A program made the translations under genes and the position numbers. Of a DNA stretch of 64,000 nt, positions 18,523 through 21,761 are shown piece after piece. Each line of letters begins with the position of its first letter. Within the stretch, counting starts at the first letter, position 1. The notes under the pieces are model-generated. The model was not told the DNA's origin. It made no database searches and saw nothing but the letters and a program-made list of their open reading frames with translations. This stretch comes from a phage: the sequence record PZ171033.1; one strand, 5' to 3'.

Positions 18523-19225
18523 TCTGGTAGGTGGCTCAGAAGCTGCTGCTATTTGTGGTAGTGTTCGTAATTCTGATGCTATTGCTTATCAGGATTCTGG
18601 ACGTGTCGGCTCCATACATAGCATTTATCATCACTGTACTTATACTTTGGAAACTCAGTGATAAAAACGGTGGTGACAAGCCGCCAGAGTAACAACAACA
18701 ACCGAACCAGTGGACTTTAATACTCTCCGAAGTCCACAGGTTCAATCTAAACTAAGCGGAAAAGTTAGCTTTTTCTTGGGTGTAGAACCTGTTGAAGGAA
18801 ACAAAGAATTTCACATTGAATAGTTAATATCGTAAAGGGTTCTGTTAGAATCCTTTGAGATAGGAACTCCTATCATAACTATTCTTAACTTAATCTTTGC
18901 CGTATGGCACTGACGCTAGGGGTGGCCCCCCATCCGTCAGGTAGACTATTTTAAGAATGGGTTATCACAGCAAATGTAAAGCAACATTCGGGTTAATCAA
19001 TGGCCTCTCCCTATAGGGGCCATTTCTGAATCTTAGGCTATATCCCAAAGGTTAGTATCTTTGGGATAAGGCTTCAGATCTCTTATCAACTAACGCTCAT
19101 GTTGAGCATTCTACTCACACAAGCCCCTATATGGGCTGGGTTAAATGTCGGATAGCATAGCTACCTACAGCATCGAGATGTTAGGTCTTACATGTAATAT
19201 AGGGTATAAAGGGAGGACTCGTCCC

Positions 19226-19242
19226 CTCCCTCCTATTATAAT
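19226..19242 (+). promoter_or_regulatory. promoter-like motif copy 1 (CCTATTATAAT)
   Basis: C-rich tract + TATAAT directly upstream of tRNA-like element. Confidence 0.3.
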
Positions 19243-19243
19243 G

Positions 19244-19313
19244 GTCGGGGTAGCACGTAGGCATGTGCGGATGGTCGCTACTTCCCTCGCTGGTTCGAAT
19301 CCAGCCCCCGACT
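19244..19313 (+). tRNA. tRNA-like element (non-canonical anticodon arm)
   Basis: 7/7 acceptor stem GTCGGGG/CCCCGAC, D arm GCAC/GTGC, T arm GCTGG-TTCGAAT-CCAGC; anticodon arm does not pair canonically by hand. Confidence 0.35.
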
Positions 19314-19864
19314 TACTGACATCCTATCAATGAGTACATTAGGCTAACGTGCGGAGGTTTACACTGTAGCCGGTGTAGGTGGAGAAGACGGCAGGGTAGC
19401 TACCTGTGCTTAGTGTACTCTTTGATAGTTTTCGTAAGCGATTATGCGGTTTTTTAGAAACGAACCAATAACATAAATGCAAACGATGATGTTGTTCTGA
19501 TGGCGGCGTAATAGCCTGTAAGTCAGCAAGGTCTTCCGACTCCTTGTAAGCAAATTCGGCGCAGTGGCCCGCTGTGATTAATAATGGGCACACAACAGGT
19601 AAGAGCATTTAGGCTACTGAGAAATCATCCGAGGCAATCAGACCTATCTTCTGTTAAGTGCTCTTTCCGTTGTGGTGAATGCGCAGGCTGATGCGCAGTG
19701 GGACGTGGCTGACTCACGAGGATGGCTCAAGCGAATAAGCAAGCTCGACGCCGCCGAATAAGCGCCTTATGCCGGAGATCAGCACCGGCCACCACAACAA
19801 GTCCAGACGATATCTGAGTGACTATAAAAACAGATGGAGCCAGGTGGAATCCCTGGCAACTAAT

Positions 19865-19930
19865 TCCGGTGTAGGTACTAGTGTCGTGCACGGCATGAGC
19901 ATTCTGGTTCGAGTCCAGACGCCGGAACCA
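19865..19930 (+). ncRNA. short tRNA-like element with encoded CCA
   Basis: Acceptor TCCGGTG/CGCCGGA, T arm TCTGG-TTCGAGT-CCAGA, 3' ACCA; only 31 nt between acceptor and T stem. Confidence 0.3.
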
Positions 19931-19932
19931 AT

Positions 19933-20056
19933 TATCAGTTGCACGAGATGGCTTGACATGTTCAAGTTTGGACTAAGTGTGACACCGCTAGATTGGAGGG
20001 CTGCTGCGGTAAGCTATAGACTCCAACCGGAGGTTCGAATCCTTCACTGATAACCA
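19933..20056 (+). ncRNA. 124-nt tRNA-like RNA with encoded CCA
   Basis: T arm GGAGG-TTCGAAT-CCTTC, 3' ACTGATA-A-CCA; only complementary 5' strand TATCAGT is 122 nt upstream. Confidence 0.25.
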
Positions 20057-20414
20057 ATTCAAAGTAGCATTGCACTAACCCATCCCGGAGTTCAAAGGCC
20101 AAACATGGAGCAGTGCTACTCTGAATTAGAAGAATTATGGTGGGTCTGGTGAAGTAGATAGGGTTCGATTCCCTCCGGTAGAGTAATCTACTAGCGTGCT
20201 TGGTGCACGAATAAGACTTAATACTGGTGGTTCAATTCCATCCCCCACTGCCTATTTGAGGTGTAACAGTTAAATCCAGTTGCCGGAAGTGCTATTCTAG
20301 ATACGCTGCCAATGTGTGAACGGTAAGGCTGTACAGGACTCGGACTCCCACCTCAAACCAAAGTCGCCAGATACTTATGGCAAACGGGTAGTAACGAACT
20401 AGTCATTCGTCAAA

Positions 20415-20432
20415 CGCCCACCCTATTATGAG
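20415..20432 (+). promoter_or_regulatory. promoter-like motif copy 2 (CACCCTATTATG)
   Basis: Near-identical to copy 3. Confidence 0.3.
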
Positions 20433-20610
20433 TCAGCAAGAACGCCTTCATTTAAACTTAAACAAAAAAGCTTAACGCAATAATTATGTAGGGGTATGTA
20501 AGGATTGCGAAGAAGGAGCCAGTTAAAGTCTGGCATGACTCACCTAATTGAGGCTGTACTTATGTTCTACAGTAGGTGCACAACACTGGGCTGCTACACC
20601 CAGAGGTACA

Positions 20611-20628
20611 GCCTCACCCTATTATGGG
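20611..20628 (+). promoter_or_regulatory. promoter-like motif copy 3 (CACCCTATTATG)
   Basis: Near-identical to copy 2. Confidence 0.3.
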
Positions 20629-20693
20629 TAGCCTATACTAGTTATAGGGCAGATAATCTGTGGCAGTGTAAGGCTGCACTACCCTTTCATTAA

Positions 20694-20769
20694 TACCCGG
20701 TAGGCTTAGTGGTAAAGCCCCACTAGTAAACCAACTAGGACGCAGGTTCGAATCCTGTCCGGGTAGCCA
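20694..20769 (+). tRNA. tRNA-like gene with encoded CCA (6-nt anticodon loop)
   Basis: Acceptor TACCCGG/CCGGGTA, D arm GGCT/AGCC, T arm GCAGG-TTCGAAT-CCTGT, discriminator G + CCA; anticodon stem CTAGT/ACTAG with 6-nt loop. Confidence 0.4.
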
Positions 20770-20774
20770 TTTAT

Positions 20775-20859
20775 GCCCACTTAGCTCAGTGGTAGAGCGC
20801 AGGAAAGCTTCGAGAGAACAAGGTGTCTGTGGTCACTGGTTCAAATCCAGTAGTGGGTA
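20775..20859 (+). tRNA. tRNA-like gene, 85 nt, no pairable anticodon arm
   Basis: Acceptor GCCCACT/AGTGGGT, canonical D arm TAGCTCAGTGGTAGAGC, T arm ACTGG-TTCAAAT-CCAGT; 36 nt between D and T arms with no 5-bp/7-nt stem-loop. Confidence 0.4.
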
Positions 20860-21174
20860 CTTATTTGCTGCAATATTCCCATAGGGAATGGTGTCGTATA
20901 CGCCACCTAGTTTCTGGTGAAACTCCAGATGCAGCAATCCATTCAGCAGTAACATAGTCCTGATTGCATTGCACTCTAAAGACAACACTGGTAAGACAGT
21001 CCAGTGGCTGCTATTGTATTGTTATTCCCCTCGACGGGAATTTCGCTAGTGAAGGTAACACTTAAAAATCCAAACCCACGTCTTACTGCTATCGGGCTAT
21101 CAACCCACAGTCGCTTAACACACTAGTGGTAGTAGTTTGACGACCTAGCCTCGTTAGCTGCGTTAAAGCTACTA

Positions 21175-21210
21175 AGTCCCCTAGAGGGGCGGCTCTAGGG
21201 GACTTTTTTA
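21175..21210 (+). terminator. strong intrinsic terminator
   Basis: 12-bp stem AGTCCCCTAGAG/CTCTAGGGGACT then T6. Confidence 0.7.
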
Positions 21211-21238
21211 TTTGAGTATTAATAGCCGGATAATCAAT

Positions 21239-21397
21239 ATGATTGACCTAATCTCAACCCCGTATGCCTATGAGGTAACGGACAACCGAGGGCATAAGTA
21301 CTTGGTATTTGCAGGTAGCGTAGCCTATAACAACGCAGTCATGTTTAAGTACAAACTCAAACCACTCTATGAGGCTAATAATGGCAACAGTAAGTAA
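21239..21397 (+). CDS. hypothetical protein
   Basis: Short ORF, start taken at ATG 21239. Confidence 0.4.
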   Translation: MIDLISTPYAYEVTDNRGHKYLVFAGSVAYNNAVMFKYKLKPLYEANNGNSK

Positions 21398-21761
21398 AGA
21401 AGCAATCGAAGCTAAGATTAAGAGCGTCTACTATTTCAATGGAGCGGATGCAGTGAAGTCTGCATTCGTTGACCCATCTGCACTACCGGCAGATGATTTG
21501 GCTAACCTGGGTCTGGTAACCTATTGTGTAATCATTCTGGAAAACAACTTTAAAGTTGAAGGTGTATCTGCTTGCGTAGACCCAACTATCTATGATGAAC
21601 AGAAGGGTCGTCAATATGCATATGAAAATGCATTCAATAAGATTTGGGAATTAGAGGGTTACCTACTACGTCAGGCACTGCACGAGAAAGAAGAGACTGC
21701 TAAAGCTCTGGCTTCCTTTGCAGAAAACAATACCTGTGATGGTGGTGGTTGTACAATCTGA
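21381..21761 (+). CDS. hypothetical protein
   Basis: ATG 21381 with GAGG upstream. Confidence 0.5.
   Translation: MATVSKEAIEAKIKSVYYFNGADAVKSAFVDPSALPADDLANLGLVTYCVIILENNFKVEGVSACVDPTIYDEQKGRQYAYENAFNKIWELEGYLLRQALHEKEETAKALASFAENNTCDGGGCTI

What the first reader, a model, noticed from the sequence alone, without database searches (positions are those of the whole stretch)
20775..20859. tRNA-like gene with canonical acceptor, D and T arms but 36 unpairable nt where the anticodon arm should be
I tested every 5-bp/7-nt register in the 36-nt middle and found no stem-loop, even allowing G-U pairs. Length matches a type II tRNA but the anticodon domain looks replaced or interrupted.
Basis: seen in the sequence. 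Interest (0 to 1): 0.55.

Follow-up and report, generated by a model that had tools for sequence, protein, structure and literature searches.

The report
tRNA-shaped phage RNA carrying conserved cargo
This is a real, conserved phage gene for a tRNA-shaped RNA whose anticodon arm has been swapped for a fixed 30-base hairpin module, so it cannot decode codons; the same module is shared by about 200 unrelated enterobacterial phages, and nobody seems to have described it.

Summary
Window 20775-20859 (+) is a strong tRNA match (Rfam 53.9 bits against a threshold of 29). It has a perfect acceptor stem, D arm, T arm and 5-nt variable loop, but no 5-bp/7-nt anticodon stem-loop. The middle is not wholly unpairable: a 4-bp stem (CAGG/UCUG) closes a weakly pairing, almost invariant interior that probably ends in a UUC/GAA stem with a GNRA tetraloop.

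It is not a type II tRNA, an intron-bearing tRNA or a pseudogene. The window is an N4-like Gamaleyavirus. Sister phages carry an ordinary 74-nt tRNA-Ile(AAU) at the same site with the same acceptor and T arms, so the D and anticodon arms were swapped. The module recurs at 93-100% identity in Kuttervirus, T5-sized and N4-like phages, with compensatory acceptor-stem changes. It also sits at the anticodon-arm position of a second, tRNA-shaped four-way junction in HK620-like phages. That junction family carries more than 100 different inserts and has no Rfam family or literature hit.

Best reading: a naturally tRNA-scaffolded, non-decoding RNA that displays a selected cargo. It is most likely a decoy or ligand for a host tRNA-binding or defence factor. 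The function is inferred, not shown.

The parts
20775..20781 (+). Acceptor stem, 5' strand (GCCCACU)
   Evidence: Pairs with 20852-20858. Five of the 7 pairs show compensatory double changes across 8 distinct homologues, and 100% of cells are paired.
20784..20798 (+). D arm GCUC-AGUGGUA-GAGC, with A14, G15 and G18G19
   Evidence: Rfam alignment. Invariant stem in all type A copies.
20800..20829 (+). Cargo module that replaces the anticodon arm. Closing stem CAGG/UCUG (20800-03 / 20826-29); 5' loop AAAGC (20804-08); UUC (20809-11); GAGA tetraloop (20812-15); GAA (20816-18); 3' loop CAAGGUG (20819-25).
   Evidence: Near-invariant in about 70 loci. Variation is limited to the two middle tetraloop positions (GAGA, GAAA, GGAA, GGGA, all GNRA) and to three wobble-compatible or loop sites. 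Weak predicted stability.
20830..20834 (+). Variable loop UGGUC (5 nt, class I)
   Evidence: Sequence and Rfam alignment.
20835..20851 (+). T arm ACUGG-UUCAAAU-CCAGU
20852..20859 (+). Acceptor stem 3' strand AGUGGGU plus discriminator A. CCA is not encoded here; it is encoded in the Kuttervirus copies.
20694..20769 (+). Neighbouring tRNA-like gene with a 6-nt anticodon loop (AAACCA) and an encoded GCCA end, 5 nt upstream of the finding
   Evidence: ARAGORN 'tRNA-??? (ac)'; Rfam tRNA 39.3 bits.
19671..19796 (+). 'Type B' tRNA-shaped four-way junction. It is the scaffold that carries the module in HK620-like phages; here it carries a different 74-nt insert. Parts: P1 UGUGGUG/CACCACA, hairpin GCGC-AGGCUGAU-GCGC, insert 19697-19770, hairpin GCCGG-AGAUCAGCA-CCGGC.
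19408..19612 (+). tmRNA-like mRNA-like region: tag frame 19479-19511 (ANDDVVLMAA, then UAA UAG), followed by pseudoknot-like and hairpin elements. Part of the same non-coding array.
   Evidence: Rfam tmRNA_permuted 31.2 bits, below threshold. Co-occurs with the module in 27 of 71 loci. Homologous stretch in 845 phage records.
21174..21205 (+). Intrinsic-terminator-like hairpin (13 bp plus a T run) that probably ends the roughly 2.3-kb non-coding array
   Evidence: consensus scan only.

Best explanation
The locus encodes a non-decoding, tRNA-scaffolded RNA. A complete class I tRNA body, apparently of tRNA-Ile2/Met ancestry, has had its anticodon arm replaced by a 30-nt, sequence-invariant hairpin module. 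Inferred steps follow. It is transcribed within the phage's array of tRNA-like genes. It is matured like a tRNA: RNase P cuts the 5' end, the 3' end is trimmed, and CCA is added where it is not encoded. The tRNA fold stabilises it, much as the engineered 'tRNA scaffold' does in E. coli. The selected part is the displayed module. The module is a mobile cassette that has moved between two different tRNA-shaped scaffolds and between at least four unrelated groups of enterobacterial phages. The most likely mode of action is as a tRNA mimic or decoy. The body would engage a host protein that recognises tRNAs, most plausibly an anticodon-directed defence nuclease or another tRNA or translation factor of Enterobacteriaceae. 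The aberrant arm would then bind, block or resist that protein.
For: Shown here:
- Full tRNA architecture and score.
- Compensatory changes in 5 of 7 acceptor pairs, with 100% pairing in 8 distinct copies.
- The gene is 94-99% identical among carriers, whereas its 300-nt flanks align at only about 50% in 7 of 8 comparisons (one downstream flank, L148, is 82.8%).
- There are 198 phage records with matches. Of these, 139 (almost all listed ones Kuttervirus-sized, 150-160 kb) are at 90-95% identity over query positions 8-77. The rest include N4-like HK2, pSb-1 and Bas96 and the 111-kb EP_H11.
- In each family the gene sits 4-5 nt after another tRNA, and the Kuttervirus copies encode ACCA.
- Sister phages carry tRNA-Ile(AAU) at the same site, which shows an allele swap.
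- The same module, together with the 3' strand of the D stem, occupies the anticodon-arm position of a second 7/4/5-bp junction in HK620-like phages.
- That junction family carries 101 distinct inserts (80 after dereplication), and its closing stem covaries.
- Every tRNA-like gene in the window's array has an abnormal anticodon region.

By analogy:
- Replacing the anticodon stem-loop of a tRNA yields stable, correctly processed chimeric RNAs in E. coli (PMC3753655).
- Phage tRNAs with altered anticodon stem-loops neutralise PARIS and retron nucleases (PMC11464382, which cites eLife 12:e85183).
Against: - There is no expression, processing or binding data.
- No partner has been identified.
- The module shows no informative double covariation, so its fold is not established, and its predicted stability is no better than shuffled sequence.
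- High conservation could partly reflect recent horizontal spread rather than long-term constraint.
- A decoy with so large an alteration may no longer be recognised by anticodon nucleases, which read the anticodon loop.
- The co-location with tmRNA-like elements points to the ribosome rather than to defence nucleases.
Confidence: 0.45

Rival explanations
1. Ribosome-directed mimic. The 3-bp UUC/GAA helix capped by a GNRA loop (a U-turn-like fold) acts as a built-in codon-anticodon minihelix. The tRNA-shaped RNA could then occupy an A site lacking mRNA, as SmpB or the CrPV IRES PKI do, and work together with the phage's tmRNA-like element.
For: In 27 of 71 module loci a tmRNA-like tag frame lies on the same strand (ANDDVVLMAA, ANEEMYLAVA and others). 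In the junction scaffold it sits at a fixed distance of about -250 nt. The tetraloop is always GNRA and the 3-bp stem is invariant. The tRNA elbow nucleotides are intact.
Against: The junction family carries over 100 unrelated inserts at this position, so the position is not dedicated to such a mimic. A geometric mimic would not need an invariant UUC/GAA or CAAGGUG. No G3.U70 or other recognisable charging identity is present. In the window the module is 1.3 kb from the tag frame. The GNRA fold is not the only pairing the data allow.
Confidence: 0.12
2. Scaffolded regulatory RNA or aptamer unrelated to tRNA biology. The tRNA body serves only for stability and processing. The module base-pairs with, or binds, some other host or phage target such as an mRNA, Hfq or CsrA-type proteins, or RNA polymerase.
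For: Hypervariable cargos in the sister scaffold, one of which contains a hammerhead-like core. The module is purine-rich and weakly structured. The engineered tRNA scaffold works for arbitrary cargos.
Against: It does not explain why the cassette was grafted into a complete tRNA with every tertiary nucleotide retained, nor why neighbouring genes are also tRNAs with odd anticodon loops. Only 7-9-nt matches to rRNA or ssrA were found. mRNA targets could not be screened.
Confidence: 0.25
3. Intron-containing tRNA that is spliced to give a decoding tRNA.
For: ARAGORN -i returns tRNA-Pro(AGG) with a 15-nt intron. All four variable interior positions fall inside that 15-nt stretch.
Against: The proposed loop CAAGGUG has A33 and U37. 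The stem needs a 25-56 pair that is broken in Bas96. The intron position 29/30 is non-canonical. Eleven of the 15 'intron' bases are invariant. There is no group I core and no BHB. Bacteria have no known splicing endonuclease (established knowledge). The same module sits in a junction that is not a tRNA.
Confidence: 0.03
4. A decaying pseudogene or recombination scar with no function. At most its tRNA shape serves as a processing signal in the transcript.
For: It cannot decode. The flanking region is highly mosaic.
Against: The arms are perfect, with compensatory substitutions. It is retained in about 200 genomes of unrelated phage families. The observed substitutions avoid every paired position except wobble-compatible ones.
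Confidence: 0.05

Closest known systems
Canonical class I elongator tRNA (Rfam RF00005), specifically the tRNA-Ile2/Met-like genes of phage tRNA clusters
   Same: 7-bp acceptor stem, 4-bp D stem, 5-bp T stem, U8, A14, G18G19, UUCRAAU T loop, 5-nt variable loop, position inside tRNA arrays, and in some copies an encoded CCA. The sister allele is a tRNA-Ile(AAU).
   Different: There is no 5-bp/7-nt anticodon stem-loop, no U33 or R37 and no anticodon. A 30-nt module takes its place, so it cannot decode.
Engineered 'tRNA scaffold' chimeras (Ponchon and Dardel; PMC3753655)
   Same: Same design: acceptor, D and T arms are kept, and the anticodon stem-loop is replaced by a hairpin-closed insert. In E. 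coli such RNAs are processed and protected like tRNAs.
   Different: This one is natural, phage-encoded and evolutionarily conserved, and its cargo has unknown function. The engineered ones are laboratory constructs.
Phage tRNAs with altered anticodon stem-loops that defeat tRNA-targeting defences (T5 tRNA-Lys versus PARIS; T5 tRNA-Tyr versus retron Eco7; PMC11464382, eLife 12:e85183)
   Same: Phage-encoded, an intact tRNA body with a changed anticodon arm, enterobacterial hosts, and location in tRNA clusters.
   Different: Those are still decoding tRNAs with point changes. Here the whole arm is replaced, so any effect would have to be by decoy or inhibition, not by substituting for a cleaved tRNA.
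tmRNA tRNA-like domain, and other tRNA-like stable phage RNAs (T4 species 1 and 2 RNAs; from my own knowledge)
   Same: A tRNA-like acceptor and T arm with a non-anticodon element in place of the anticodon arm. Genomic association with a tmRNA-like tag-coding RNA.
   Different: It has a true D stem, no G3.U70, no mRNA-like region in cis and no long P2 helix or pseudoknots. The tmRNA-like region in the window is a separate element.
HK620-type tRNA-shaped four-way junction with a hypervariable insert ('type B'; apparently undescribed)
   Same: Identical module together with the adjoining D-stem 3' strand (GC G CAGG...), at the same architectural position. 7/4/5-bp stem lengths.
   Different: The junction has Watson-Crick-complementary hairpin loops (GCUGAU/AUCAGC) instead of canonical D and T loops, a 3-nt linker, and is embedded in a longer leader RNA. 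The finding uses a genuine tRNA body.

Membership tests
Decoding tRNA (RF00005) | Cloverleaf scoring above the family threshold | tested here: met
   53.9 bits against a gathering score of 29, full model 1-71.
Decoding tRNA (RF00005) | 5-bp anticodon stem with a 7-nt loop, U33, anticodon and purine 37 | tested here: not met
   Only 3-4 bp close a 22-nt interior. Default ARAGORN makes no call. The forced intron model gives A33 and U37.
Decoding tRNA (RF00005) | Aminoacylation and use on the ribosome | not testable with these tools
   Needs acid-gel Northern blots or charging assays.
Class II (long variable arm) tRNA | Variable arm longer than 10 nt between positions 44 and 48 | tested here: not met
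   The variable loop is UGGUC, 5 nt.
Intron-containing tRNA | Group I intron core (about 200 nt or more) or a bulge-helix-bulge, leaving a canonical loop after removal | tested here: not met
   The excess is 13-15 nt. No removal restores U33/R37 (by inspection). No Rfam intron hit at E <= 1.
tRNA pseudogene | Relaxed constraint: broken stems and lineage-specific decay | tested here: not met
   100% of cells paired, 5 compensatory pairs. Gene 94-99% identical; 7 of 8 flank comparisons about 50%, one 82.8%.
tmRNA tRNA-like domain | G3.U70 alanine identity, no D stem, mRNA-like region in the same molecule | tested here: not met
   Position 3:70 is C-G; the D stem is 4 bp; the tag frame lies 1.3 kb upstream as a separate element.
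tRNA-scaffolded cargo RNA (architecture of the engineered tRNA scaffold) | Acceptor, D and T arms kept; anticodon stem-loop replaced by a hairpin-closed insert | tested here: met
   Anatomy. Definition of the design in PMC3753655.
tRNA-scaffolded cargo RNA (architecture of the engineered tRNA scaffold) | Processed and stabilised by the tRNA maturation machinery in vivo | not testable with these tools
   Inferred from position in tRNA arrays and encoded CCA in the Kuttervirus copies.
Anticodon-nuclease-evading or decoy phage tRNA | Protects the phage against a tRNA-targeting defence system | not testable with these tools
   Only contextual support: all tRNA-like genes of the array have aberrant anticodon regions.

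The most novel reading that the evidence does not exclude
Enterobacterial phages may possess an undescribed RNA system in which tRNA-shaped scaffolds display interchangeable, fast-evolving RNA cargos. The scaffolds are either genuine tRNAs or a 7/4/5-bp junction with complementary hairpin loops that could kiss. These cargos are often encoded next to a tmRNA-like tag-coding RNA that has no tRNA-like domain. The module in this window would be one especially successful cargo, possibly a cis codon-anticodon mimic or a defence-protein ligand. It manipulates the host's translation or tRNA-surveillance machinery.
Probability: 0.2. Interest if true: 0.88.

Novelty: new variant of a known kind. Interest (0 to 1): 0.68.

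Why it matters
Phage tRNA genes are usually explained by codon supply, or more recently by escape from anticodon nucleases. This is a tRNA body that cannot decode yet is kept in hundreds of genomes and traded between unrelated phages, which implies that the tRNA shape itself is used as a delivery or display vehicle.

It would be a natural counterpart of the laboratory tRNA scaffold. It also gives a defined, small and portable RNA cassette to test for anti-defence or translation-hijacking activity.

It exposes two larger unannotated RNA families in well-studied phages (HK620, Felix O1-like, Vi01-like, N4-like). One is a tRNA-shaped junction with hypervariable inserts. The other is a tmRNA-like coding RNA without a tRNA-like domain.

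In practice, annotation pipelines currently label these genes tRNA-OTHER, Undet, Val or Leu. That inflates tRNA counts and hides a distinct class.

Tried and rejected
- Default ARAGORN made no call. With introns allowed it gave only a forced Pro(AGG) model, which I rejected.
- Rfam at E <= 1 over 19000-21500 returned only tRNA and sub-threshold tmRNA and tRNA-Sec hits. Rfam on the HK620 and RCIP0093 loci returned nothing relevant.
- Manual comparison with kink-turn, sarcin-ricin/loop E, SRP domain IV, the 11-nt tetraloop receptor, boxB and archaeal BHB motifs found no fit. This was inspection only.
- Mimicry of, or complementarity to, E. coli 16S, 23S, 5S, tRNA-Ile and ssrA gave only 7-9-nt matches (AACAAGGU = 16S 1499-1506; CAAGGUGC = ssrA 38-45), which is chance level.
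- A search for module variants with a changed stem base in viral contigs gave 3 chance hits.
- A scan of one genome per bacterial species gave 4 chance hits and no true module.
- The metagenome scan gave 14 loci, all with the same two scaffolds.
- In E. coli complete genomes the module is in 107 of 5426 genomes, in unannotated DNA; where context was seen it is homologous to the HK620 late-leader region.
- k-mer enrichment among 80 junction inserts found no shared motif.
- Literature string searches for the module, the junction core and the tag peptides returned nothing. Topic searches found only generic tRNA annotations.
- I did not use the protein tools because the locus is non-coding.

Full report
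**What is at the coordinates**

The window is an N4-like podophage of E. coli (Gamaleyavirus, Schitoviridae). The 3 kb around the finding matches phages Bp4, ECBP1, St11Ph5, UE-S5a and 24-32N at 87-94%. A 3456-codon ORF, homologous to the gene annotated as RNA polymerase in UE-S5a (presumably the virion RNA polymerase), lies just downstream on the other strand.

cmscan places a complete tRNA match at exactly 20775-20859 (+). It scores 53.9 bits against a gathering score of 29, with E = 8e-9. Default ARAGORN misses it.

Read directly from the sequence, the RNA has these parts:
- acceptor stem GCCCACU/AGUGGGU
- U8 A9
- D arm GCUC-AGUGGUA-GAGC
- G26
- a 30-nt middle segment (20800-20829)
- variable loop UGGUC
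- T arm ACUGG-UUCAAAU-CCAGU
- discriminator A

All nucleotides that build the tRNA elbow are present: U8, A14, G15/C48, G18G19 and the T loop.

**The middle segment**

The segment is not strictly unpairable, however. CAGG (20800-03) pairs with UCUG (20826-29).

Two weak inner pairings are possible:
- UUC/GAA closed by the tetraloop GAGA.
- GCUU/AGGU plus one G-C pair. This is what RNAfold and RNAalifold prefer.

The isolated module folds at only -1.7 to -5.6 kcal/mol, no better than shuffled sequence. Across homologues the tetraloop reads GAGA, GAAA, GGAA or GGGA, always GNRA. I therefore favour the GNRA hairpin, but no pair shows a double compensatory change, so the fold remains unproven.

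**It is not a type II tRNA, an intron-bearing tRNA or a pseudogene**

- The variable loop is 5 nt, so this is not a type II tRNA.
- ARAGORN with introns allowed returns only a forced tRNA-Pro(AGG). That model has a 15-nt intron at position 29/30 and a loop CAAGGUG with A33 and U37. Its fifth stem pair is broken in the Bas96 copy.
- Nothing resembling a group I core or a bulge-helix-bulge is present (inspection; Rfam at E <= 1).
- Decay is excluded. In 8 distinct copies every stem cell is paired, and 5 of 7 acceptor pairs carry compensatory double changes: GCCCACU/AGUGGGU, GUCCACU/AGUGGAC and UGCUUCA/UGAAGCA.
- The gene is 94-99% identical among N4-like and T5-sized carriers, while the 300-nt flanks align at only about 50% in 7 of 8 comparisons (one downstream flank, L148, is 82.8%).

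**The anticodon arm was replaced**

Sister Gamaleyaviruses (UE-S5a, ECBP1, 24-32N) carry a normal 74-76-nt tRNA-Ile(AAU) at the same place. Its acceptor stem, variable loop and T arm are identical or near-identical to those of the window gene, but its D and anticodon arms differ. Published annotations list these genes simply as tRNA-Ile-AAT, tRNA-Undet and tRNA-Cys-ACA (PMC11927229).

**Distribution**

The 85-nt gene matches 198 phage records:
- 100% in Escherichia phage HK2.
- 97.6% in Shigella phage pSb-1, and 97.5% (over positions 3-82) in Bas96, where it is annotated tRNA-Val.
- 96% in the 111-kb phage EP_H11.
- 90-95% over positions 8-77 in 139 records. Almost all listed ones are 150-160-kb Kuttervirus-type genomes (Vi01, Det7, CBA120, PhaxI and others). 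There it is unannotated or called tRNA-OTHER or tRNA-Leu.

In Vi01 it starts 4 nt after tRNA-Ser, has a different acceptor stem and encodes ACCA. In EP_H11 it starts 5 nt after the CCA end of the preceding tRNA, which I read as tRNA-Gly(UCC) by inspection. The gene therefore behaves as a member of tRNA arrays in three unrelated virulent phage groups.

**A second scaffold**

Positions 23-56 alone (the D-stem 3' strand plus the module) also match HK620, Klebsiella phages RCIP0093, SopranoGao and ZCKp20p, and Escherichia phage swi2.

In these phages the module sits in a different four-way junction with these parts:
- a 7-bp closing stem (UGUGGUG/CACCACA or UUGGAUG/CAUCCAA)
- the linker AAU
- hairpin GCGC-AGGCUGAU-GCGC
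- the module
- hairpin GCCGG-AGAUCAGCA-CCGGC

The stem lengths of 7, 4 and 5 bp are those of a tRNA, and the two hairpin loops are Watson-Crick complementary. In HK620 the junction lies in the late leader between qut and the terminator tQ.

Pattern scans of viral, metagenomic and species-representative genome collections found the module only in these two scaffolds. No copy has an altered stem. It occurs in 107 of 5426 complete E. coli genomes, always unannotated; where context was seen it matches the HK620 late-leader region.

**The junction is a hypervariable display site**

I searched for the junction's 5' half followed by anything other than the module. In all I found 101 different inserts of 24-162 nt, 80 after dereplication, with no shared motif. 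One contains a hammerhead-like CUGAUGA...GAAAC core. The closing stem has 7 contiguous pairs in 139 of 153 cases, with more than 30 different covarying sequences.

The window itself has such a junction at 19671-19796, carrying a 74-nt insert unrelated to the module. The module is therefore one cargo among many. It is unusual because it is conserved and has been grafted onto a genuine tRNA.

**Context in the window**

Between a promoter-like site (18824-18851) and a strong terminator-like hairpin (21174-21205) lie about 2.3 kb without convincing ORFs. This stretch holds at least six elements with a T arm; five of them, including the finding, also show a perfect 7-bp acceptor closure. All have abnormal central regions. 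It also holds the junction and a tmRNA-like coding region.

The tmRNA-like tag frame co-occurs with the module in 27 of 71 loci on the same strand. In junction-type loci it sits at a fixed distance of about -250 nt.

**Mechanism**

Shown here:
- a complete tRNA body
- a replaced anticodon arm
- conservation and horizontal spread
- an interchangeable-cargo architecture

Inferred: tRNA-like maturation and stability. Engineered tRNA scaffolds with the anticodon stem-loop replaced are processed and protected in E. coli (PMC3753655).

My preferred reading is a tRNA mimic or decoy that engages a host tRNA-recognising factor. I favour it because every tRNA-like gene of the array is altered specifically in the anticodon region. 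Phage tRNAs with altered anticodon stem-loops are also known to neutralise PARIS and retron nucleases (PMC11464382).

Rivals:
- a ribosomal A-site mimic with a built-in codon-anticodon-like minihelix, linked to the tmRNA-like RNA
- a scaffolded regulatory RNA or aptamer
- an intron-bearing tRNA
- a pseudogene

The last two are essentially excluded.

**Novelty**

No Rfam 15 family covers the module or the junction. No paper in the searchable library contains their sequences or the tag peptides. I rate the finding as a new variant of a known kind (tRNA-like phage RNAs and tRNA mimics), with a realistic chance that it belongs to a larger undescribed system.

Noticed in passing
window 19408-19612 (+); tag frame 19479-19511: A tmRNA-like mRNA-like region with no tRNA-like domain. 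It has the resume context AUAAAUGCAAACGA, a 10-codon tag ANDDVVLMAA, a UAA UAG double stop in a hairpin, then a pseudoknot-like element and a hairpin. Rfam tmRNA_permuted scores 31 bits, below threshold. A homologous stretch occurs in 845 phage records (Felixounavirus, Kuttervirus, Chaseviridae, siphophages, HK620); in the records listed it is unannotated or falls under a 'hypothetical protein' CDS. The tags vary like real tags (ANEEMYLAVA, ANDNVFLAVA, ANDNTFLAVA, ANDSEMRMVA and others). ARAGORN finds no tmRNA..
   Followed up: partly
window 19671-19796 (+); also L004 2478-2566 (HK620) and more than 170 viral loci: A tRNA-shaped four-way junction (7/4/5-bp stems, complementary hairpin loops GCUGAU/AUCAGC) with a hypervariable insert at the anticodon-arm position. 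There are 101 distinct inserts of 24-162 nt, and the closing stem covaries. No Rfam family and no literature hit..
   Followed up: partly
window 20694-20769 (+): A tRNA-like gene (Rfam 39.3 bits) with a 5-bp anticodon stem and a 6-nt loop AAACCA, plus an encoded GCCA end. It is conserved in UE-S5a and 24-32N, and annotated tRNA-OTHER/Undet in UE-S5a (unannotated in 24-32N)..
   Followed up: partly
window 19243-19314 (+): A tRNA-like gene that ARAGORN calls tRNA-Ala(CGC). It has U37 and a U.U mismatch in the anticodon stem, and falls below the Rfam tRNA threshold; its best hit is tRNA-Sec at 28 bits. It lies about 165 nt upstream of the tmRNA-like region..
   Followed up: no
window 19865-19930, 19933-20056 and about 20226-20250 (+): Further elements with a canonical T arm. 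The first two also have a perfect 7-bp acceptor closure and an encoded ACCA end, with 62-nt and 120-nt bodies and non-tRNA interiors; for the third (T arm at 20226) no perfect acceptor 5' strand was found and no CCA is encoded. The whole stretch 18850-21205 looks like one array of tRNA-shaped non-coding RNAs..
   Followed up: partly
L006 2583-2745 (Salmonella phage Vi01, just downstream of its copy of the finding): A roughly 165-nt RNA candidate with acceptor stem GAGUGUG/CGCACUC, a T arm UCGGG-UUCGAUU-CCCGA and a CCA-like 3' end. Its interior contains AAGGUGUGCAUGCCGA, which is nearly identical to E. coli ssrA nt 38-53. Seen by eye.
   Followed up: no
L001 1925-2003, L002 1891-1965 (sister Gamaleyaviruses): The allele that replaces the finding in sister phages is a tRNA with anticodon AAU. 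Its anticodon arm (ACCGACUAAUAAUCGG) differs from a phage tRNA-Met/Ile2 arm (swi2: ACCGACUCAUAAUCGG) only at position 34. An A34 isoleucine tRNA is itself unusual in bacteria..
   Followed up: no
L154 (IMG/VR contig), junction insert: One junction insert contains a hammerhead-ribozyme-like core (CUGAUGAGGCCAUAAGGCCGAAAC)..
   Followed up: no
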